DNA of 64,000 bases from a virus. The notes under the pieces are model-generated. The model did not search any database. It was given only the letters and a program-made list of their open reading frames with translations, and was not told the DNA's origin. Below are positions 10,229 through 22,614 of the stretch, piece by piece. Made by a program: the position numbers and the translations under genes. The DNA lies in IMG/VR virus record IMGVR_UViG_3300043403_000051, positions 1 to 64,000 of that record. One strand, written 5' to 3'. Each line of letters begins with the position of its first letter. Within the stretch, counting starts at the first letter, position 1.

Positions 10229-10254
10229 AAGGTATTATTTAAATGTTATTTTTG

Positions 10255-10328
10255 TGAACGGGATTGGATTCAAACCAATGACCTACTGCTTAGAAGGCAG
10301 TTGCTCTATTCAACTGAGCTACCCATCC
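10255..10328 (-). tRNA. tRNA-Arg(TCT)
   Basis: GGATGGG acceptor, TAGCTCAG D-arm, ACTGC-CTTCTAA-GCAGT, ATTGG-TTTGAAT-CCAAT. Confidence 0.85.
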
Positions 10329-11753: not shown

Positions 11754-11883
11754 TGCCTTAGGCAGGACTCGAACCCGCACTCTAAAAGAACTGAATGTTT
11801 AGTTCAGCGTGTATTCCGAGTTTAATCAAGCGCTAGGTTTGGAAGCTAACAGACCCCTTGATTAAACATTTCACCACTAAGGC
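11754..11883 (-). ncRNA. tRNA-Leu-like RNA with ~48-nt hairpin in the D-loop and an AAA anticodon
   Basis: GCCTTAG/CTAAGGC acceptor with A73, TGGTGAAA...GGAATACACG D-arm split by a GTTTAATCAAG/CTTGATTAAAC hairpin, CTGAA-CTAAACA-TTCAG, variable arm, GCGGG-TTCGAGT-CCTGC. Confidence 0.7.
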
Positions 11884-16794: not shown

Positions 16795-16826
16795 TTTGGT
16801 AGTTTCAAAAATTTAACGTATCTTTG
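16795..16826 (+). promoter_or_regulatory. Bacteroidota sigma-type promoter
   Basis: TTTGGTAG...TATCTTTG with 20-nt spacing; ATG 5 nt downstream. Confidence 0.75.
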
Positions 16827-16831
16827 TATTC

Positions 16832-17053
16832 ATGAAGGATGTTATAGAGAATACTTTTTTAGATTTACCTCTTATGAGGAGAGCTATTGTTTATGGTATT
16901 GCTTTGTATGATGAAAAATATGAGTTATTGAAGGTTATTGACCCCCTTATAAAAGAAGATAGGGATGAATTTTTAAAAGCGGCAGAACTCATTAAAGATA
17001 TATGTACACTGTCAGGTGGTGAAATTGGTATACGCGCTGCCTCGTCTCGGTAG
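16832..17053 (+). CDS. hypothetical protein, probably leaderless; 3' end overlaps a tRNA-like RNA
   Basis: ORF starts at the predicted transcription start. Confidence 0.5.
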   Translation: MKDVIENTFLDLPLMRRAIVYGIALYDEKYELLKVIDPLIKEDRDEFLKAAELIKDICTLSGGEIGIRAASSR

Positions 17054-17134
17054 TGCAATTCTTGATAAGGACAGTCATTTAAACATATTGGACGCTTATA
17101 GAGTTGCTTGTAGGTTCGAATCCTACCCTGACAG
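17010..17134 (+). ncRNA. tRNA-like RNA with giant variable arm
   Basis: TGTCAGG/CCTGACA acceptor, Leu-type D-arm TGGTGAAATTGGTATACGC, CTGCC-TCGTCTC-GGTAG, ~55-nt hairpin GCAATTCT...AGAGTTGC, GTAGG-TTCGAAT-CCTAC. Confidence 0.7.
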
Positions 17135-17150
17135 CTTAAAATTATTAATT

Positions 17151-17486
17151 ATGAATGTGGAATTTATAGTACGATTTGATAAAGAATTAACCGCAGAGCA
17201 AAAGAGAGAACGTAAAGAGGCTCAACAATTACATAAAATGGTTAATCCTAATGATTATGAAGGCCCTGTATATGAAAAGGAGTATGAGTACTTGCCTATT
17301 ACATTACCTATTACTGATAAGGTGATTTTTAATGTGTATGATAAAAACCATACAACCGTATATATACCTAAAATAGCAACATATATGCTTAAAATAAAGT
17401 ATGATGATTTTAAACAAGTCTTTGGTATTGCAACAGGAAATCTATTAATTCCAAAAGCTGAAAGCTTAATTCCCCCGACCCCATAA
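17151..17486 (+). CDS. hypothetical protein
   Basis: Likely start MNVEFIVR just after the tRNA-like RNA. Confidence 0.6.
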   Translation: MNVEFIVRFDKELTAEQKRERKEAQQLHKMVNPNDYEGPVYEKEYEYLPITLPITDKVIFNVYDKNHTTVYIPKIATYMLKIKYDDFKQVFGIATGNLLIPKAESLIPPTP

Positions 17487-17514
17487 TTAAATTTGATTAA
17501 TTTCTAAAAATAAA

Positions 17515-17546
17515 TTTGGTAGTTTCAAAAAAGTTACTTACCTTTG
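17515..17546 (+). promoter_or_regulatory. promoter of tRNA operon 1
   Basis: TTTGGTAG...TACCTTTG with 20-nt spacing. Confidence 0.8.
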
Positions 17547-17564
17547 TATTTCAATAAAAGAAAA

Positions 17565-17669
17565 ATGAATTCAAGAACTGTCATAGATAATATTAGAAAC
17601 GCGGAGGGCTGTAAAAAGGCTCTTGTGGGTAATGTATGTTTTTATGACGGAGGTTGCGGATGTAACTAA
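17565..17669 (+). CDS. attenuator leader peptide 1, MNSRTVIDNIRNAEGCKKALVGNVCFYDGGCGCN
   Basis: Short ORF between promoter and terminator; codons 6-19 match the downstream tRNA set. Confidence 0.8.
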   Translation: MNSRTVIDNIRNAEGCKKALVGNVCFYDGGCGCN

Positions 17670-17692
17670 AGACAGATAAAATAAAATATATG

Positions 17693-17732
17693 AACCCCTC
17701 AAGAGCCAAAGCTTCTGAGGGGTTTCTTTTTT
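17693..17732 (+). terminator. attenuator terminator 1
   Basis: AACCCCTCA...TGAGGGGTT followed by TCTTTTTT, directly before tRNA-Lys. Confidence 0.85.
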
Positions 17733-17806
17733 CCCCTTATAGCTCAATTGGTTAGAGTACCAGACTTTTAATCTGGGTGTTCAGAGTTCGAGTCTCTGTG
17801 GGGGGA
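17733..17806 (+). tRNA. tRNA-Lys(TTT)
   Basis: CCAGA-CTTTTAA-TCTGG, TTCGAGT T-loop. Confidence 0.9.
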
Positions 17807-17819
17807 CATAAAATAATAA

Positions 17820-17891
17820 GGGCGTGTGGCCGAGTGATTCAGGTAGTGGTCTGCAACACCATTGACACAGGTTTGAATCCTGTCATGCCCT
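17820..17891 (+). tRNA. tRNA-Cys(GCA)
   Basis: GTGGT-CTGCAAC-ACCAT, U73. Confidence 0.85.
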
Positions 17892-17901
17892 CTTAATATA
17901 T

Positions 17902-17976
17902 GCATCGGTAGCTCAGTTGGTTTAGAGCAGGGTCTTTACACGGCTCTGGTCGGGGGTTCGAATCCCTCTCGATGTA
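17902..17976 (+). tRNA. tRNA-Val(TAC)
   Basis: GGGTC-TTTACAC-GGCTC. Confidence 0.85.
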
Positions 17977-17982
17977 CATTCT

Positions 17983-18053
17983 CCACCTGTCGTTCAATGG
18001 AAGGACAACATGCTTCTAACTTGTTTACAGAGGTTCGACTCCTCTCAGGTGGT
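17983..18053 (+). tRNA. tRNA-Arg(TCT)
   Basis: ACATG-CTTCTAA-CTTGT, CCACCTG/CAGGTGG acceptor. Confidence 0.85.
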
Positions 18054-18072
18054 CTAACAAAATTTTAACAAT

Positions 18073-18405
18073 ATGATTAAGTTTTTATCAGCTATATTTC
18101 TTATCTTTGTAGTTGCTACAATGTCAAAGACAGGAACAGCAAGTTTTTATCACTCTAAGTTCGAAGGTAGGAAAACAGCAAACGGTGAAGTATTTAGAAA
18201 TAATGGGTATACGGCAGCATCAAATCAGTTCAAGCTTGGTGATAGTGTAAGAGTTACTAACCTTGAAAATATGAGGAAAGTAAATGTGAAGATTAATGAT
18301 AGAATGGCTGATGGTATAAGATTGATTGATTTAACACAAAAAGTAGCAAGAGATTTAGGTTACTATAAAAAAGGTATAACAAAAGTAAAAGTAGAAAAAA
18401 TATAA
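18073..18405 (+). CDS. RlpA-like double-psi beta-barrel protein (lytic transglycosylase family)
   Basis: Signal-like N-terminus, GTASFY, TANGE, TAA, VRVTN, VKINDR, IDL. Confidence 0.85.
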   Translation: MIKFLSAIFLIFVVATMSKTGTASFYHSKFEGRKTANGEVFRNNGYTAASNQFKLGDSVRVTNLENMRKVNVKINDRMADGIRLIDLTQKVARDLGYYKKGITKVKVEKI

Positions 18406-18411
18406 ATAAAT

Positions 18412-18483
18412 TCCCCTTTAGCTCAACGGAAGAGCAACACCCTGTTAAGGTGAAGGTTGAGATATCGTAATTCTCAGGGGGAG
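18412..18483 (+). tRNA. tRNA-Asn(GTT)
   Basis: CACC-CTGTTAA-GGTG, G73. Confidence 0.85.
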
Positions 18484-18490
18484 CATATAT

Positions 18491-18563
18491 TGTGGGGTGC
18501 AAGTAATGGTAACTGGTCGGTCTCATAAGCCGTACGATAATGGTTCGACTCCATTCTCCGCAA
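18491..18563 (+). tRNA. tRNA-Met(CAT) (Met or Ile2 identity not resolved)
   Basis: CGGT-CTCATAA-GCCG, TTCGACT T-loop. Confidence 0.8.
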
Positions 18564-18627
18564 CAGAAACGCTTTATATCTCGGCTCGTATATAAAGGGA
18601 AGATTCTTGAAATAAACGGGCCCTCAC

Positions 18628-18701
18628 GCAGTATACGCATAATTGGTGGTGCATCTTCCTTCCACGTAGAAATAGAGTCGGTTCGATTCCGACATACTGC
18701 T
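18628..18701 (+). tRNA. tRNA-Gly(TCC)
   Basis: GCAGTAT/ATACTGC acceptor, CTTCCAC loop, U73. Confidence 0.8.
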
Positions 18702-18745
18702 CAGGGGGTTTTATCAGTTTCCCGTGACAAAAAAACTGGTGTTAT

Positions 18746-18821
18746 ATCCCTGTTGACAAAATTGGAGTAAGTCCCTTCCCTTTCAAGGAAGTTATTGCGA
18801 GTTCGAGCCTCGTCGGGGATA
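18746..18821 (+). tRNA. tRNA-Glu(TTC)
   Basis: CTTCC-CTTTCAA-GGAAG. Confidence 0.85.
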
Positions 18822-18826
18822 CAGTA

Positions 18827-18917
18827 AAAGTAGTTGGCGTAATTGGGAATGAATACCAACAATAGTTAACGCCCTATATCAGTATAGGAGATGCGGGTGG
18901 AAGTCCTGTACTACTTT
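18827..18917 (+). ncRNA. degenerate tRNA-like element
   Basis: AAAGTAGT/ACTACTTT acceptor, GCGT..ACGC D-stem with enlarged loop, CCTATA-TCAG-TATAGG, GCGGG-TGGAAGT-CCTGT. Confidence 0.5.
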
Positions 18918-18924
18918 AACATAC

Positions 18925-18998
18925 GGAATTGCAGCATATTTGGCGTATGCAACTCACTGTCTATGAGTTGATTGCGGGTTCGAGTCCCGTCTTTTCCG
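18925..18998 (+). tRNA. tRNA-Asp(GTC)
   Basis: ACTCA-CTGTCTA-TGAGT, G73; two acceptor-stem mismatches. Confidence 0.8.
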
Positions 18999-19068
18999 CA
19001 GTAGTTTGGGAAACGAAGGCATGTAAAACTGAAAAGTGTCTACTCAAACAGCCCTTAACGGGGCATCT

Positions 19069-19141
19069 GCTTTCTTAGCTCAACGGTGAGAGCAGGACGC
19101 TTATATCGTCAAGGTTACAGGTTCGAATCCTGTAGGAAGTA
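19069..19141 (+). tRNA. tRNA-Ile(TAT)
   Basis: GACG-CTTATAT-CGTC. Confidence 0.85.
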
Positions 19142-19146
19142 CATAT

Positions 19147-19220
19147 TGAGATGTAGCTCAATTGGTGAGAGCATATGACTGATACTCATAAGGTTGAAGG
19201 TTCGACCCCTTTCATCTCAA
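19147..19220 (+). tRNA. tRNA-Ile(GAT)
   Basis: TATGA-CTGATAC-TCATA. Confidence 0.85.
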
Positions 19221-19225
19221 CACAC

Positions 19226-19299
19226 GGGGCAATAGTTTAAGCGGCTTAAAACAATTGATTTGCAATCAGTAGTTCCGATTTCGAGTATCGGTGGCTCCA
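19226..19299 (+). tRNA. tRNA-Ala(TGC)
   Basis: ATTGA-TTTGCAA-TCAGT, G3:U70 pair. Confidence 0.85.
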
Positions 19300-19313
19300 C
19301 ACAAAGAACAACA

Positions 19314-19793
19314 ATGGACAAATATTTTAAAACTGAGACTGGTAAAATAGTTGATATAATAGAATACACGGCCCAACAAATAAAAGACAATCCCTCTGTT
19401 AAGATATACATAGGTGCTGATAGCCAAGTCTACGGCCCTAAGATTAAGTTTATCTTAGCTATTGTATATAGGGTTGGTAATAGGGGTGGGCACTGTATTC
19501 ATAAGCTTATAAAGACTGAAAGACCACCCAAAGGGATTCCTGATGAAATTCAGGTTAATAACAGGCTTACAGAGGAAGTTTACTTAACTATGGAGCTTGC
19601 CCAATATTTTATTGATAATAGTTCTTTTAAACTGGAGGCAGTTGAATTTGACTTTAATCAAGAGGAAAGTTACCTAAGTAACAAGCTAATAAACTTATCA
19701 ACAGGTTGGGCTAAAGGACTTGGTTTTAAAGCACGTACTAAGCCTGATGAACTGATAGCTTGCAAGTATGCAGACCATCTCGTAAGATTTTAA
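19314..19793 (+). CDS. RNase H-like YkuK (DUF458) family protein
   Basis: IYIGADSQ, GGH, RL.EEV, KPD..IA...AD; start MDKYFK. Confidence 0.75.
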   Translation: MDKYFKTETGKIVDIIEYTAQQIKDNPSVKIYIGADSQVYGPKIKFILAIVYRVGNRGGHCIHKLIKTERPPKGIPDEIQVNNRLTEEVYLTMELAQYFIDNSSFKLEAVEFDFNQEESYLSNKLINLSTGWAKGLGFKARTKPDELIACKYADHLVRF

Positions 19794-19795
19794 TT

Positions 19796-20392
19796 ATGAT
19801 TGTAATATATAAAATAGAAAATCCAAAAGGTAAAGTTTATATTGGTCAAACCAAAAGACTTATTCAAAGAAAGTCTGCTTACAAAAATTTAAGATGTAAG
19901 AAACAAAGAAAACTTTATAGTTCTTTAAATAAATATGGTTGGGAAAATCATACACTTTGTGTTTTACATGAGTTACCTGATGATATAGAGCAAAGAGTAG
20001 TAGATGATTATGAAATTTTTTACTATGAACAATTTATTGCTTGTGGATTTGAAATGCTAAACCTAAAAACATGCGGAAACGGCGGAGGATTACACTCGGA
20101 GGAAACAAAGAGATTGATAGGAAAACAAAGTAAGGAAAGATTTAAAGCTAAATCTGGAATGAAAATAGCTCAGGTAAATCTTAATTTGGAAATTATTAAT
20201 TTTTGGGAGAACGGTTATACACTACAACAAGAAAGAAAGTATTACAATATATCAAGAAAATGCAGAGAATTTCCAAGTATAGCTTATGGATATTTTTGGT
20301 TATACGAAAAAGATTTACATAAATTAACGCAAATAGACAAGCTTAAAATAAAAAAAGACGGGAATGGTGTTTATAGTTATTTCAAAATGTAA
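19796..20392 (+). CDS. GIY-YIG homing endonuclease with NUMOD-type C-terminus
   Basis: VIYKIEN..KVYIGQT, LN...GG, HSEETKRLIG, AYGYFW. Confidence 0.85.
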   Translation: MIVIYKIENPKGKVYIGQTKRLIQRKSAYKNLRCKKQRKLYSSLNKYGWENHTLCVLHELPDDIEQRVVDDYEIFYYEQFIACGFEMLNLKTCGNGGGLHSEETKRLIGKQSKERFKAKSGMKIAQVNLNLEIINFWENGYTLQQERKYYNISRKCREFPSIAYGYFWLYEKDLHKLTQIDKLKIKKDGNGVYSYFKM

Positions 20393-20431
20393 TAATCTCT
20401 GTAGAGTTTAGTAATTCATTAACATTATTTA

Positions 20432-20463
20432 TTTGGTAGATTAAAAAAAGATTTATACCTTTG
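20432..20463 (+). promoter_or_regulatory. promoter of tRNA operon 2
   Basis: TTTGGTAG...TACCTTTG with 20-nt spacing. Confidence 0.8.
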
Positions 20464-20469
20464 TATCCC

Positions 20470-20547
20470 ATGAAGAATTTCAACACATATTATAGTCTCT
20501 CATTGTTATCCAGCCTAACGGGTCGGGAGCTAAAGGTATGGGTATAA
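20470..20547 (+). CDS. attenuator leader peptide 2, MKNFNTYYSLSLLSSLTGRELKVWV
   Basis: YYSLSLLSSL run upstream of Leu/Leu/Ser/Ser/Tyr tRNAs. Confidence 0.85.
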   Translation: MKNFNTYYSLSLLSSLTGRELKVWV

Positions 20548-20576
20548 TAAAGATAAACTCTTAAATCAAAACATAT

Positions 20577-20604
20577 AAAAAAGCTCCCTATTGGGGGCTT
20601 TTTT
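20577..20604 (+). terminator. attenuator terminator 2
   Basis: AAGCTCCC-TATT-GGGGGCTT followed by TTTT. Confidence 0.85.
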
Positions 20605-20611
20605 AGTTTAT

Positions 20612-20684
20612 GGCTCTATGACGTAATTGGAAACCGTCTTGGCTTTAGAACCCAAGTTTCCGAGTTCGAGTCTCGGTAGAGCTA
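20612..20684 (+). tRNA. tRNA-Leu(TAG), short variable loop
   Basis: TTGG..TTTAGAA..CCAA, A73. Confidence 0.8.
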
Positions 20685-20687
20685 CAT

Positions 20688-20760
20688 GCCTTTGTGATGA
20701 AACGGAATACATGTCAGACTTAAAATCTGAATTTTACGGGTTCGACTCCCGTCAGAGGTA
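20688..20760 (+). tRNA. tRNA-Leu(TAA), short variable loop
   Basis: TCAGA-CTTAAAA-TCTGA, A73. Confidence 0.85.
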
Positions 20761-20765
20761 CATTT

Positions 20766-20850
20766 GGAAGCACGTAAAGTTGGCGTACTTATCCGTCTTG
20801 AAAACGGTGAAGAGGTAACACTTGTGCAGGTTCGACCCCTGCTGTTTCCG
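20766..20850 (+). tRNA. tRNA-Ser(TGA)
   Basis: CCGT-CTTGAAA-ACGG, long variable arm, G73. Confidence 0.85.
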
Positions 20851-20853
20851 CAT

Positions 20854-20937
20854 AGAGAGGTGACTGAATGGTAAGGTACTGGTTTGCTAAACCAGGGTCA
20901 GATAAAACTGGAGTGGGTTCGATACCCATCCTCTCTG
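20854..20937 (+). tRNA. tRNA-Ser(GCT)
   Basis: CTGGT-TTGCTAA-ACCAG, long variable arm. Confidence 0.85.
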
Positions 20938-20998
20938 CTAAAGGGTTCCTGTATCAGGCAAAATATAACCCCCGTTGTGGTATAGGAATCGTTTATTT

Positions 20999-21083
20999 GA
21001 GATAGCTGTCGTGATGGAGGAACGGCACTGGTCTGTAAAACCAGCACTATGAAACACAGTAGGTTCGAATCCCACCTATCTCA
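20999..21083 (+). tRNA. tRNA-Tyr(GTA)
   Basis: CTGGT-CTGTAAA-ACCAG, long variable region. Confidence 0.85.
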
Positions 21084-21109
21084 CATTAACAATTAATTTT
21101 AATTATTTA

Positions 21110-21141
21110 TTTGGTAGTTAGATAAAAAGATACTACCTTTG
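21110..21141 (+). promoter_or_regulatory. promoter of tRNA operon 3
   Basis: TTTGGTAG...TACCTTTG with 20-nt spacing. Confidence 0.8.
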
Positions 21142-21145
21142 CTTT

Positions 21146-21226
21146 ATGAATGTAACACGTACACATACGCAACAGTTTTGGTTCCCTACAAGGGCTGGGC
21201 TTGGTATGTGTGATAATAGAGGATAA
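21146..21226 (+). CDS. attenuator leader peptide 3, MNVTRTHTQQFWFPTRAGLGMCDNRG
   Basis: TRTHTQQFWFPTR run upstream of Pro/Thr/Phe/Gln/His/Arg/Trp tRNAs. Confidence 0.85.
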   Translation: MNVTRTHTQQFWFPTRAGLGMCDNRG

Positions 21227-21250
21227 ATTCCCCCAAACACTCACTCATTG

Positions 21251-21288
21251 AAAAGCCCAGGACATAAAATCCTGGGTTTTTTATTTTT
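21251..21288 (+). terminator. attenuator terminator 3
   Basis: AAAAGCCCAGGA-CATAAAA-TCCTGGGTTTT followed by TTATTTTT. Confidence 0.85.
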
Positions 21289-21291
21289 AAT

Positions 21292-21365
21292 CGGGATGTG
21301 GACTAATGGCAAGTCACTTACTTTGGGAGTAAGGCATCATGGAGGTTCGAGTCCTCTCATCCCGA
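21292..21365 (+). tRNA. tRNA-Pro(TGG)
   Basis: CTTAC-TTTGGGA-GTAAG. Confidence 0.9.
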
Positions 21366-21370
21366 CATTT

Positions 21371-21442
21371 GCCTCGTAAGCATATATGGTGATGCAGCGC
21401 ACTTGTAATGCGCAGAATAGGTTTCGAGTACCTAACTTGGCT
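21371..21442 (+). tRNA. tRNA-Thr(TGT)
   Basis: GCGCA-CTTGTAA-TGCGC. Confidence 0.85.
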
Positions 21443-21449
21443 CAGTAAT

Positions 21450-21521
21450 GGAGATATAGCTCAGTTGGAAGAGCAACGGATTGAAGCCCCGTGAGCACCA
21501 GTTCGACTCTGGTTATCTCCA
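21450..21521 (+). tRNA. tRNA-Phe(GAA)
   Basis: ACGG..TTGAAGC..CCGT, GGAGATA/TATCTCC acceptor. Confidence 0.85.
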
Positions 21522-21528
21522 CATATAT

Positions 21529-21599
21529 TCCCATTTGGCGTAACGGAAGCGTAGGACTCTTTGAAAGTCTTGGAAATTGTTCGATTCAATTAATGGGAG
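21529..21599 (+). tRNA. tRNA-Gln(TTG)
   Basis: GGACT-CTTTGAA-AGTCT. Confidence 0.85.
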
Positions 21600-21604
21600 C
21601 ACAC

Positions 21605-21676
21605 GGGTTTATTGATGTAATGGAAGCATGGCAGTTTGTGAAGCTGCTCGTATGGGTTCGAACCCCATATCTACCC
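21605..21676 (+). tRNA. tRNA-His(GTG)
   Basis: GCAGT-TTGTGAA-GCTGC, G-1:C73. Confidence 0.85.
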
Positions 21677-21681
21677 CTTTT

Positions 21682-21753
21682 ATCCTCTTAGCATAATGGA
21701 AGTGCAGCAAGCTACGAACTTGCGTTGTGTGAGTTCGAGTCTCATGGAGGATT
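21682..21753 (+). tRNA. tRNA-Arg(ACG)
   Basis: GCAAG-CTACGAA-CTTGC. Confidence 0.85.
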
Positions 21754-21765
21754 CTTTTTATAACT

Positions 21766-21835
21766 GCGTATGCCTAAAGGAGTAGTAAGCGGTCTCCAAA
21801 ACCGTGATTTATCAGTTCGAGTCTGGTCATGCGTG
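21766..21835 (+). tRNA. tRNA-Trp(CCA)
   Basis: GCGGT-CTCCAAA-ACCGT; weak D-arm. Confidence 0.8.
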
Positions 21836-21846
21836 CTTAAATAGTA

Positions 21847-21896
21847 TACCCAAGTTAATTATTTGTTAAAAGTAATTGATTTGGGTTATTTTTTTT
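21847..21896 (+). terminator. terminator closing the tRNA region
   Basis: ACCCAAGTTAATTA/TAATTGATTTGGGT stem followed by a T-tract. Confidence 0.7.
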
Positions 21897-21925
21897 GGTA
21901 GTGTCATAAATTCTTGTTATTTTTG
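21894..21925 (+). promoter_or_regulatory. promoter of the packaging/virion block
   Basis: TTTGGTAG...TATTTTTG with 20-nt spacing. Confidence 0.7.
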
Positions 21926-21940
21926 TATAAATTAATTACT

Positions 21941-22294
21941 GTGAGCAACCAAATACCTTTTATAAAGATTTCAAAGAACACAGACTCTAAAATAGAGATG
22001 GTTAAAAAGATTGTTTCTATCTATTGTGTGTTGTCTGATATTAAACTTTCTGAAACTGATATTATAGTTGTTTCATATTTCATTCTATATGGAATCAATG
22101 AAAAAACTAAAAAATTAATTATTGATAGCAAACTCCTTAATAGTGATAGTATCAAAAATACAATGTCAAAATTAAGAAAAGCAGGTATAATTAAAAAATC
22201 AGAATTCAGGAGAAAAGAAGATTATCTAAATGAAAACTTAAACATACCAATTAATAAAGTTGTTGGATTAATGATTAAAATAGATAACTCCTAA
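21941..22294 (+). CDS. putative winged-helix DNA-binding protein
   Basis: SIKNTMSKLRKAGIIKK; start uncertain (GTG 21941). Confidence 0.5.
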   Translation: MSNQIPFIKISKNTDSKIEMVKKIVSIYCVLSDIKLSETDIIVVSYFILYGINEKTKKLIIDSKLLNSDSIKNTMSKLRKAGIIKKSEFRRKEDYLNENLNIPINKVVGLMIKIDNS

Positions 22295-22614
22295 TGAAAA
22301 ATATAGATTATGTAACCAAGAAAGTAGCAAAAGAACTACAACTTAATGAAGACATTGTATCGAAAATTTATTATGATTTTTATTGGAAGAATGTAGTATT
22401 TCCAAAAATAAAATCTTTTGAGTATACGGCAATAACATTACCAAAGCTTGGTACATTATATCTATCATACTATAAACTAAGAAAAGAAATAACAGACATA
22501 ATATTTAGACTTAGACGAGTTAGAGATAATGACACACTTACAGATGGAAAAAGAAAACAATTAGATGACCATTATGTAAATTATCTTAGAAAATTATTAT
22601 TACGTAGAAACTAA
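22294..22614 (+). CDS. HU/IHF-like protein
   Basis: KKVAKELQL...AITLPKLGTL; typical position upstream of TerL in crAss-like phages. Confidence 0.5.
   Translation: MKNIDYVTKKVAKELQLNEDIVSKIYYDFYWKNVVFPKIKSFEYTAITLPKLGTLYLSYYKLRKEITDIIFRLRRVRDNDTLTDGKRKQLDDHYVNYLRKLLLRRN

What the first reader, a model, noticed from the sequence alone, without database searches (positions are those of the whole stretch)
17565..17732. Attenuator 1: 14 consecutive codons sampling ten amino acids
Codons 6-19 (GTC ATA GAT AAT ATT AGA AAC GCG GAG GGC TGT AAA AAG GCT) cover every amino acid of operon 1 except Met, the start codon. Arg is AGA, matching tRNA-Arg(TCT), and both ATA and ATT occur, matching the TAT and GAT Ile tRNAs. 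Protector: CTGTCATAGA (17578-87) pairs with TTTATGACGG (17641-50) and GAGGGCT (17604-10) with GGCTCTT (17618-24). Antiterminator: GGCTCTTGTGGG (17618-29) pairs with CCCTCAAGAGCC (17696-707). Caveat: a ribosome stalled on the final Lys codons might cover part of the antiterminator.
Basis: partly seen in the sequence, partly recalled or inferred. Interest (0 to 1): 0.88.

Follow-up and report, generated by a model that had tools for sequence, protein, structure and literature searches.

The report
Leader-peptide switch before phage tRNA genes
A tiny gene spelled in the amino acids of the twelve tRNA genes behind it, joined to a switchable transcription stop, probably lets this phage make those tRNAs only when ribosomes decode slowly, a control I found no paper describing for tRNA genes.

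Summary
Observation confirmed. 17565-17669 is a 34-codon ORF between a promoter-like motif and a hairpin plus U-run that abuts tRNA-Lys. Codons 6-19 use only, and all, the ten non-Met amino acids of the 12 downstream tRNAs; this is the only such 14-mer among 56,172 six-frame windows. Two more units of the same build precede the other two tRNA blocks, each matching its own block.

The decisive evidence is comparative. In 21 units from 8 related phages, including cultured Cellulophaga phage phi4:1, the tRNAs are grouped differently and the leaders follow: 230 of 273 codons 4-16 lie in the unit's own set against 82.7 expected. Each leader's codons about 17-24 complement its own terminator's 5' arm (mean rank 3.3 of 21; 0 of 20,000 permutations).

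Best reading: ribosome-mediated attenuation of tRNA operons.

Weak points:
- There are no RNA or bench data.
- Modelling of this unit shows only a modest effect.
- Its Cys and Lys codons sit where a stalled ribosome would cover the antiterminator.
- The protector pairing and codon-to-anticodon tuning do not exceed controls.

Eight literature searches found no paper. Earlier notes of this scan reported the same kind of element on other phage DNA.

The parts
17515..17546 (+). Promoter-like two-box motif of unit 1
   Evidence: Pattern search: 16 hits in the window against 6.8 expected, reached by 0 of 100 shuffles. Five copies share the same 32-base span, at 16795, 17515, 20432, 21110 and 21894, all on the + strand. 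The likeness to the Bacteroidota -33/-7 consensus is recalled, not tested.
17565..17669 (+). Leader ORF 1, 34 codons plus stop
   Evidence: 28 of its 33 non-start residues lie in the tRNA set of the unit. No Pfam or PHROGs family. Homologous ORFs are in Lbo-JY46, L022 and L101.
17580..17621 (+). Sensor run, codons 6-19: ten amino acids in 14 codons
17578..17587 (+). 5' strand of the outer 'protector' (clamp) helix
   Evidence: In the minimum-energy fold it pairs with 17641-17650. The energy is not beyond shuffles (95 of 300).
17641..17650 (+). 3' strand of the clamp helix
17601..17610 (+). Region 1: pairs with the start of region 2 in the minimum-energy fold
   Evidence: codons 12-16, -11.7 kcal/mol, reached by 28 of 300 shuffles.
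17618..17636 (+). Region 2, the antiterminator 5' strand (core 17618-17629)
   Evidence: -17.3 kcal/mol with the terminator's 5' arm, reached by 2 of 300 shuffles; its own arm ranks 2 of 21.
17652..17667 (+). Small hairpin at the end of the ORF
   Evidence: Minimum-energy fold. No role assigned.
17692..17725 (+). Terminator hairpin: 5' arm 17692-17706 (region 3), loop 17707-17710, 3' arm 17711-17725 (region 4)
   Evidence: -20.7 kcal/mol, with a one-by-one internal loop. The simple terminator scan did not flag it.
17723..17732 (+). U-run, ending one base before tRNA-Lys
17733..19300 (+). tRNA block 1: Lys, Cys, Val, Arg(tct), then ORF 18073-18405 (DPBB_1), then Asn, Met, Gly, Glu, Asp, Ile(tat), Ile(gat), Ala
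   Evidence: The two-box motif does not recur between 17546 and 20432.
20432..20603 (+). Unit 2 (context): motif 20432-20463, leader ORF 20470-20547, antiterminator strand about 20524-20541, terminator about 20576-20603. It precedes Leu(tag), Leu(taa), a Ser(tga)-like tRNA, Ser(gct) and Tyr
21110..21283 (+). Unit 3 (context): motif 21110-21141, leader ORF 21146-21226, antiterminator strand about 21194-21214, terminator 21249-21283. It precedes Pro, Thr, Phe, Gln, His, Arg(acg) and Trp

Best explanation
Unit 1 is a ribosome-mediated transcription attenuator in front of a phage tRNA operon.

Proposed mechanism:
- Transcription starts at the motif at 17515-17546, and a ribosome translates the 34-codon leader.
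- If decoding is fast, the ribosome runs over region 2 (17618-17636). Afterwards the leader refolds, so the hairpin at 17692-17725 forms and RNA polymerase stops at the U-run, one base before tRNA-Lys.
- If the ribosome stalls on the sensor codons for want of usable aminoacyl-tRNA for any of the sampled amino acids, region 2 stays free. It pairs with the terminator's 5' arm as that arm emerges, and polymerase reads through into the 12 tRNA genes.
- The new tRNAs then relieve the stall, closing a negative-feedback loop.

Shown here: the parts, their order, the match between leader and tRNA set, and the co-variation of both across phages. Inferred: translation of the leader, termination at the hairpin, the direction of the switch, and the purpose. 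The purpose would be tRNA supply on demand, for instance when host tRNAs are scarce, degraded or cut by tRNA-targeting defences.
For: 1. Content match in this window. Each of the three leaders has a run made only of its own block's amino acids: 14, 10 and 13 codons. Each is the only such window in the six-frame translation (1 of 56,172, 1 of 68,808 and 1 of 58,946). The longest runs against the other two sets are 1-7 codons.

2. Co-variation of content.
- In Cellulophaga phage phi4:1 (TerL 32% identical) the blocks are Pro-Glu-Gln-His-Leu-Leu-Arg(acg), Ala-Lys-Ile-Gly-Met-Asp-Thr-Val-Arg(tct)-Met and Tyr-Ser-Asn-Trp-Phe. Their leaders have runs of 11, 16 and 10 codons from those sets.
- In L022 and L101, Asp and Asn sit in the third block and its leader gains them.
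- With curated sets for 12 units, 135 of 156 codons 4-16 lie in the unit's own set (52.3 expected). Only the true assignment, 1 of 1,296 label permutations, reaches this; the next best gives 119.
- With automated sets for 21 units, 230 of 273 lie in the own set (82.7 expected), and every tRNA amino acid is present in its leader in 21 of 21 units.
- Arg codon box follows the Arg tRNA. Units with only acg hold a CGN codon, units with only tct hold AGR, and the two units with both tRNAs hold both boxes. One AGR codon in window unit 3 is an exception (read).

3. Switch anatomy.
- In the 15 units the first tRNA is preceded by a hairpin of -11.8 to -21 kcal/mol, with a U-run inside or just after it. 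The stop codon lies 15-29 nt before the hairpin in 14 of 15.
- The best partner of the terminator's 5' arm lies just after the sensor, starting at codons 15-21. Shuffles reached its energy in 0-10 of 300 trials for 14 of 15 units.
- Across 21 units the own arm ranks on average 3.3 of 21, and 3 or better in 16. None of 20,000 permutations does as well.
- Homologous units with different terminator sequences have matching changes in region 2.

4. Direction of the switch. With a ribosome footprint masked on the sensor codons, terminator probability falls from 0.74-0.97 to 0.0-0.2 in L022 units 1-3 and L021 unit 3. It stays high with the footprint further downstream.

5. Signs of a read frame. Differences between homologous leaders fall 41, 38 and 72 at codon positions 1, 2 and 3, and length differences are whole codons (the alignment was protein-guided, which favours this pattern).

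6. Controls.
- crAss001, with 23 tRNAs, gives no such unit.
- A blind scan found 16 of 83 gaps at adjusted P < 0.001 against 3 of 110 antisense decoys.
Against: - No RNA run holds this DNA, so no transcript end, read-through or ribosome occupancy is known.
- For the window's own units the equilibrium model is weak. Unit 1 drops at best to 0.56 (codon 11); most sensor codons stay at 0.85-0.96. Unit 2 does not respond (0.80-0.84).
- In the truncated-transcript proxy the antiterminator forms as well without any ribosome as with a stalled one (0.70 for unit 1). The state without translation is therefore unclear.
- Cys and Lys occur in the run only at codons 16-18, where the footprint covers region 2: the proxy falls to 0.48, 0.28 and 0.13. 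In all four unit-1 homologues Lys sits directly before region 2.
- Direct pairing of region 1 with region 2 is not beyond shuffles in most units. The clamp helix is specific only as a group: mean rank 6.7 of 21, 1 of 20,000 permutations, with single units at 1-265 of 300 shuffles.
- Codon choice is not tuned to the anticodons: 96 of 156 strict matches against 96.3 under a synonymous null.
- The match has exceptions. The Lbo-JY46 and L019 unit-2 leaders keep Tyr codons, though no Tyr tRNA was found downstream. The third leaders of phi4:1 and L039 hold Thr and Cys without such tRNAs in the block. L039 unit A has only 8 of 13.
- csAssE-Sib has a promoter-like motif, hairpin and T-run before a tRNA but no matching ORF, so such hairpins may have another role.
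- Unit-1-type leaders do not pass the blind scan on their own.
Confidence: 0.7

Rival explanations
1. The parts form a real attenuator, but what it reads is general translation stress or amino-acid supply, not the tRNA pool. Any slowing of ribosomes (starvation, ribosome-targeting toxins or antibiotics) would open the tRNA operons. The leader composition would then only ensure that the test peptide resembles the demand that the operon serves.
For: Codon choice is not tuned to the block's anticodons beyond amino-acid identity (96 of 156 against a null of 96.3). That fits sensing at the level of the amino acid. The extra tRNA operon of Anabaena is switched on by translation-targeting antibiotics (abstract of PMC10272220).
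Against: Three separate units, each limited to its own block, would be needless for a global signal. The Arg codon box follows the Arg isoacceptor of the unit. Extra tRNA does not relieve amino-acid starvation (inference).
Confidence: 0.2
2. The hairpin and U-run are not a regulated terminator. They would be a fixed 5' element of the tRNA precursor for processing or stability, or a leaky stop. The short ORF would then have some other role or none.
For: csAssE-Sib has a promoter-like motif, a hairpin and a T-run before tRNA-Met without a matching ORF. The simple terminator scan does not flag unit 1. The window's units respond weakly in the equilibrium model.
Against: This does not explain why leader content follows the tRNA set in 21 of 21 units. 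Nor does it explain why the segment after the sensor is complementary to its own terminator arm, with matching changes between homologues (0 of 20,000 permutations).
Confidence: 0.07
3. The leader RNA acts without ribosomes. Its row of codons would bind the anticodons of tRNAs directly, as a T-box-like element or a tRNA sponge.
For: The codons match the tRNAs of the unit at the amino-acid level.
Against: - Start and stop codons are kept, and length changes are whole codons.
- Third positions vary about twice as much as the others.
- The start codon lies 4-8 bases after the promoter-like box in many units.
- No T-box or other leader family of Rfam matched.
- Ten to sixteen adjacent codons could not all be read by bulky tRNAs at once (inference).
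Confidence: 0.02
4. The match of unit 1 is chance: an ordinary short ORF in a spacer before a tRNA array.
For: The set of unit 1 covers 58% of residues, so 12 of 13 in a fixed window has P of only 0.009.
Against: It is 1 of 56,172 windows when diversity is counted. It lies at the one place where an attenuator would lie. Units 2 and 3 and 18 further units in relatives show the same match.
Confidence: 0.01

Closest known systems
Multivalent leader-peptide attenuators of enterobacterial amino-acid operons (thr leader with Thr and Ile codons; ilvGMEDA leader with Ile, Leu and Val codons; also trp, his, leu, pheA). Recalled from textbook knowledge, no paper read here
   Same: Both have a short translated leader with a run of regulatory codons. 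Both have an intrinsic terminator before the first gene. Both have an upstream strand that can pair with the terminator's 5' arm instead, so the position of the ribosome decides.
   Different: The controlled genes are tRNAs, not biosynthetic enzymes, so the product acts directly on the signal that is read. The sensor samples 3 to 10 different amino acids, one set per operon. The element is phage-borne. The antiterminator strand lies inside the ORF, well before the stop. The 1:2 pairing is not clearly conserved. No Rfam leader family matches.
pheST attenuator of E. coli (leader peptide rich in Phe before the Phe-tRNA synthetase genes). Recalled, no paper read here
   Same: Leader-peptide attenuation is applied to a gene of the translation machinery, not to a biosynthetic pathway.
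   Different: It reads one amino acid and controls a synthetase. Here the tRNAs themselves are controlled and many amino acids are sampled.
T-box riboswitches (Rfam RF00230)
   Same: The leader of an operon related to tRNA charging senses the state of a tRNA and chooses between terminator and antiterminator.
   Different: A T-box binds one uncharged tRNA directly through a single specifier codon and needs no ribosome. Here there is an ORF with many codons, and RF00230 did not match.
Silent 26-gene tRNA operon of Anabaena sp. PCC 7120, repressed by TrcR (PMC10272220, abstract read)
   Same: An extra tRNA array is kept off and turned on under translational stress.
   Different: Control there is by a ribbon-helix-helix repressor protein acting on the whole array. 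Here it is a cis-acting leader peptide and terminator for each block, in a phage.

Membership tests
Ribosome-mediated (leader-peptide) transcription attenuators | A short ORF with start and stop in the 5' leader of the operon, kept as a reading frame | tested here: met
   The ORF is at 17565-17669. Homologous ORFs occur in Lbo-JY46, L022 and L101. Length differences are whole codons, and differences by codon position are 41, 38 and 72. Translation itself was not observed.
Ribosome-mediated (leader-peptide) transcription attenuators | Regulatory codons for the amino acid(s) that the operon's products deal with | tested here: met
   14-codon run with all ten amino acids; 230 of 273 codons in the own set over 21 units (82.7 expected).
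Ribosome-mediated (leader-peptide) transcription attenuators | An intrinsic terminator between the leader ORF and the first gene | tested here: met
   Hairpin at 17692-17725 of -20.7 kcal/mol, with the U-run ending at 17732 and the tRNA starting at 17733. The simple scan flags units 2 and 3 but not unit 1, whose stem has an internal loop.
Ribosome-mediated (leader-peptide) transcription attenuators | An antiterminator pairing that excludes the terminator | tested here: met
   17618-17629 with 17696-17707: -17.3 kcal/mol, reached by 2 of 300 shuffles. The own arm ranks on average 3.3 of 21; 0 of 20,000 permutations do as well.
Ribosome-mediated (leader-peptide) transcription attenuators | An anti-antiterminator (1:2) pairing that overlaps the regulatory codons | tested here: inconclusive
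   It is present in the minimum-energy fold. Its energy is reached by 28 of 300 shuffles, and that of the clamp helix by 95 of 300. As a group the clamp is specific (1 of 20,000 permutations).
Ribosome-mediated (leader-peptide) transcription attenuators | Stalling on the regulatory codons lowers termination | tested here: inconclusive
   This was modelled only. The effect is clear in L022 units 1-3 and L021 unit 3 (to 0.0-0.2). It is modest in window units 1 and 3 (0.56 and 0.55) and absent in unit 2. Stalls on codons 16-19 of unit 1 cover region 2. A bench test is not possible with these tools.
Rfam leader families (Phe_leader RF01859 and the other amino-acid operon leaders) | A match to the family's covariance model at its gathering score | tested here: not met
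   (17000-22500, E up to 1). The only hit is Phe_leader at 25 bits against a gathering score of 55 (E 0.64), over the unit 2 terminator on both strands. Nothing matched at unit 1.
T-box riboswitch (RF00230) | A match to the covariance model (specifier loop and T-box sequence) | tested here: not met
   No hit.

The most novel reading that the evidence does not exclude
Phages of this lineage run their tRNA genes as closed-loop supply circuits. Each tRNA block has its own multiplexed sensor peptide that reads, codon by codon, whether the cell can still decode the amino acids that the block serves. Transcription opens only for the block that is short. This would let the phage answer host tRNA loss, including cuts by tRNA-targeting defence nucleases, with exactly the tRNAs needed. 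It would be the first case of tRNA genes under leader-peptide attenuation, and of one attenuator sampling up to ten amino acids.
Probability: 0.35. Interest if true: 0.92.

Novelty: new variant of a known kind. Interest (0 to 1): 0.85.

Why it matters
Why phages carry tRNA genes is an old question. Recent work ties them to host defences that cut tRNAs (search listing and abstract openings of PMC10264068 and PMC11555353).

A built-in sensor that turns each tRNA block on when its codons are decoded slowly would show that phage tRNAs are regulated by demand. It would give a direct read-out of which tRNAs a phage expects to lose. It would also extend leader-peptide attenuation from amino-acid operons to the decoding machinery itself.

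The idea is testable, because the same architecture is present in a cultured pair: Cellulophaga phage phi4:1 and Cellulophaga baltica. The leaders could also serve as compact reporters of tRNA availability for many amino acids at once.

Tried and rejected
Searches for relatives that gave nothing:
- The search for related loci in viral contigs with the DPBB ORF, the RNaseH-like ORF and TerL alone.
- A degenerate DNA pattern from leader 3 gave one chance hit inside a tail gene.
- The metagenome scan with the TerL alignment returned 80 loci, of which 3 had three or more tRNA calls. Only L101 was a real same-strand array.

Other phages:
- Bacteroides phage crAss001 has 23 tRNAs but no matching leaders or terminators.
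- csAssE-Sib has a hairpin and T-run but no matching ORF.
- FpV4, cr55_1, cr10_1 and the Azobacteroides phage have 0-3 tRNAs and were not followed.
- The lone tRNA-Arg at 10254-10328 (minus strand) has no obvious leader by eye.

Expression and population data:
- No RNA holder was listed.
- Laying DNA contigs of four runs gave nothing usable on the leader. 39 differences were not shown.

Ideas tested and dropped:
- Codon-to-anticodon tuning.
- A conserved direct 1:2 pairing.

Other steps:
- The DNA alignment of the four unit-1 homologues was too diverged for column-wise pair counts.
- Pfam and PHROGs found nothing for the three leaders.
- Pfam on upstream ORFs gave nothing bearing on tRNA.

Rows dropped before the counts:
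- L020, L028 and L075, because they gave results identical to L019, L022 and L008.
- Unit 1 of L021, and units 1 and 3 of L019, which were not identified within the loci.

The automated sets contain some doubtful low-threshold tRNA calls and miss some tRNAs seen by other calls or by eye.

Supplementary files of papers were not opened. No claim here depends on them.
Full report
**What is there.** The window is part of an 83-kb IMG/VR virus record. It carries 23 tRNA genes on the + strand between 17733 and 21836. Rfam also found a Ser(tga)-like tRNA at 20766-20849, and low-threshold ARAGORN found homologues of it in relatives.

The finding covers 17565-17732. An ATG at 17565 opens a 34-codon ORF that stops at 17667-17669. 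My first coordinates were off by one, so one search is void.
- Upstream, at 17515-17546, lies a two-box motif. It recurs with the same 32-base span at 16795, 20432, 21110 and 21894. The window holds 16 hits against 6.8 expected, reached by 0 of 100 shuffles.
- Downstream, 17692-17725 folds into a hairpin of -20.7 kcal/mol. Its U-run ends at 17732, one base before tRNA-Lys.

**The observation.** Codons 6-19 use only Ala, Arg, Asn, Asp, Cys, Glu, Gly, Ile, Lys and Val. These are all ten non-Met amino acids of the 12 tRNAs up to 19300.
- Among 56,172 six-frame 14-residue windows of the 64-kb window, 17 lie wholly within this set. Only this one has ten different residues.
- A residue-independent simulation reached both properties in 48 of 200,000 peptides.

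**Two sister units.** The same order of motif, short ORF, hairpin with U-run and tRNAs occurs at 20432-20611 and 21110-21291.
- Leader 2 has a 10-codon run of Leu, Ser and Tyr only, before the Leu, Leu, Ser, Ser and Tyr tRNAs.
- Leader 3 has a 13-codon run of Arg, Gln, His, Phe, Pro, Thr and Trp only, before exactly those seven tRNAs.
- Each is the single such window in the six-frame translation (1 of 68,808 and 1 of 58,946).
- Against the other two sets the longest runs are 1-7 codons.

**Relatives.** TerL places the phage among crAss-like and other Bacteroidota phages. Its identity is 75% to "Leptolyngbya phage Lbo-JY46", 32% to Cellulophaga phages phi4:1 and phi17:2, and 23-30% to gut crAss-like phages.
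- Lbo-JY46 has a syntenic array with all three leaders.
- phi4:1 groups its tRNAs differently, and its three leaders match the new groups with runs of 11, 16 and 10 codons. For example, Thr sits in the second block there, and the second leader has Thr codons. In the window Thr sits in block 3 and leader 3.
- A TerL alignment retrieved 80 IMG/VR loci and 80 metagenome loci. tRNA arrays within 10 kb of TerL were found in L019/L020, L021, L022/L028, L039, L075 (which is phi4:1) and L101.
- In L022 and L101, Asp and Asn lie in the third block and Arg(acg) in the first. The third leader gains Asp and Asn. The first leader holds both an AGR and a CGN Arg codon.

**Statistics across units.** I used a window fixed in advance (codons 4-16).
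- For 12 units with curated sets, 135 of 156 codons belong to the unit's own set (52.3 expected). Of 1,296 permutations of set labels within phages, only the true one reaches this, and the next best gives 119.
- For 21 non-redundant units with sets called automatically, the count is 230 of 273 (82.7 expected). In 21 of 21 units every amino acid with a tRNA in the block occurs in the leader.
- A blind scan of all gaps before tRNAs gave 16 of 83 at adjusted P < 0.001, against 3 of 110 antisense decoys. That count includes duplicate loci and one spurious hit at 46.6 kb that rests on low-threshold tRNA calls.
- Unit-1-type leaders do not pass the blind scan alone, because their set covers more than half of all residues (P 0.009 for this unit).

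**The switch.**
- In the 15 units the terminator's 5' arm has its best upstream partner just after the sensor run, starting at codons 15-21. Shuffles reached that energy in 0-10 of 300 trials for 14 units and in 35 of 300 for one.
- Over 21 units each leader prefers its own terminator arm: mean rank 3.3 of 21, rank 3 or better in 16, and 0 of 20,000 permutations as good.
- Homologous units whose terminators differ in sequence carry matching changes in this strand. This holds for unit 1 in the window, L022 and L101, and for unit 3 in the window, L021 and L022.
- For this unit the duplex is -16.7 to -17.3 kcal/mol, against -18.5 to -20.7 for the terminator. The two folds are thus close in energy.
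- The stop codon lies 15-29 nt before the hairpin in 14 of 15 units.

**Modelling a ribosome.** I masked a footprint from 15 nt before to 11 nt after the first A-site base, at each codon in turn.
- In L022 units 1-3 and L021 unit 3, terminator probability at equilibrium falls from 0.74-0.97 to 0.0-0.2 for stalls on the sensor codons. It returns to the high value for stalls further on. This is the polarity expected of an attenuator.
- The window's units respond weakly. Unit 1 reaches 0.56 at codon 11 and stays at 0.85-0.96 at most other sensor codons. Unit 3 reaches 0.55 and unit 2 does not respond.
- As a kinetic proxy I took the probability that the terminator's 5' arm is already paired upstream before its 3' arm exists. 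For unit 1 this is 0.70 for stalls on codons 2-15. It is 0.48, 0.28, 0.13 and 0.13 on codons 16-19, and 0.10-0.24 on codons 20-27.
Cys and Lys, which occur in the run only at codons 16-18, are badly placed.
- The same proxy is 0.70 without any ribosome, so the state without translation is not settled by this model.

**Weaker parts.**
- Direct pairing of the sensor with region 2 is not beyond shuffles in most units (28 of 300 here).
- The outer clamp helix is specific as a group (mean rank 6.7 of 21; 1 of 20,000 permutations). It is not specific unit by unit (95 of 300 here).
- Codons are not tuned to the block's anticodons: 96 of 156 strict wobble matches against 96.3 under a synonymous null, and 128 of 156 with four-way U34 reading. 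The Arg codon box is the exception.
- The content match has exceptions. Tyr codons occur without a Tyr tRNA downstream in Lbo-JY46 and L019 unit 2. Thr and Cys occur in the third leaders of phi4:1 and L039. L039 unit A has 8 of 13.

**Signs of translation.**
- Homologous leaders differ by whole codons in length.
- Their differences fall 41, 38 and 72 at codon positions 1, 2 and 3 (the alignment was protein-guided).
- In many units the start codon lies 4-8 bases after the second promoter box. This would make the leader mRNA leaderless or nearly so, which is an inference.
- No Pfam or PHROGs family matches the peptides.

**Limits of distribution.**
- crAss001, with 23 tRNAs, has no such units.
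- csAssE-Sib has a hairpin and T-run before tRNA-Met but no matching ORF.

**What is known.**
- Eight full-text searches found no paper on leader-peptide attenuation of tRNA genes or of phage tRNA arrays.
- The nearest items were the Anabaena tRNA operon repressed by TrcR (PMC10272220, abstract read) and papers on phage tRNAs as an answer to tRNA-targeting defences (PMC10264068 and PMC11555353; listing and abstract openings only).
- Rfam has no matching leader family.
- Earlier notes of this scan describe the same kind of element in other phage genomes. None of those genomes is a look-alike of this window. They are unchecked AI notes and I did not test them.

**Verdict.** The best explanation is a classical ribosome-mediated attenuator put to a new use, gating a block of phage tRNA genes by how well their own amino acids are decoded. 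I hold this at about 0.7. The further reading, that it is an on-demand answer to tRNA loss, I hold at about 0.35. It is a new variant of a known kind of control.

Noticed in passing
window 17010-17134 (+): A tRNA-like element with intact acceptor, D and T arms and about 65 extra bases where the anticodon and variable region should be (Rfam tRNA, 32 bits, E 3.6e-05). It lies just upstream of unit 1 and overlaps the start of ORF 17016-17486. Another first-reader note reports a similar split tRNA body at 11754-11883.
   Followed up: partly
window 18565-18627, 18823-18924, 19000-19068: Spacers of 63, 102 and 69 bases inside tRNA block 1 with no tRNA call from ARAGORN or Rfam. They could hold degenerate tRNAs or other small RNAs.
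   Followed up: no
window 19069-19142: A tRNA-Ile with a genomic TAT anticodon lies beside tRNA-Ile(GAT). At the same place Lbo-JY46 has a CAT tRNA, called Met by ARAGORN and possibly an Ile tRNA that reads ATA after modification.
   Followed up: no
window 18073-18405, 19314-19793, 19796-20392: Protein genes are embedded in or attached to tRNA block 1: a DPBB_1 (RlpA-like) protein, a PF04308 RNaseH-like protein (its Lbo-JY46 homologue is annotated as like KVP40 Orf299), and a weak GIY-YIG match just below Pfam's cut-off. If the attenuator works, they would be co-regulated with the tRNAs.
   Followed up: partly
L004 (PP438436.1, Leptolyngbya phage Lbo-JY46): The closest named relative is recorded as a phage of a cyanobacterium. 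Yet its TerL relatives are phages of Bacteroidota, and it shares the two-box promoter-like motif. The host label may deserve a check.
   Followed up: no
L008 5354-5427 (phi4:1) and L039 1932-2005 (minus strand): A conserved tRNA-like gene at the end of the third block, annotated as a pseudo-tRNA, has no regular anticodon arm. Both third leaders contain Cys and Thr codons that no called tRNA of the block serves.
   Followed up: partly
window 21848-21886 (+): A long A/T-rich hairpin with a T-run directly after the last tRNA (Trp), probably the terminator of the whole array. The next copy of the promoter-like motif follows at 21894.
   Followed up: no
L015 640-900 (csAssE-Sib, minus strand): A promoter-like motif, about 60 bases without a plausible ORF, then a hairpin with a T-run directly before tRNA-Met. 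This stop-like hairpin before a tRNA array has no leader peptide.
   Followed up: partly
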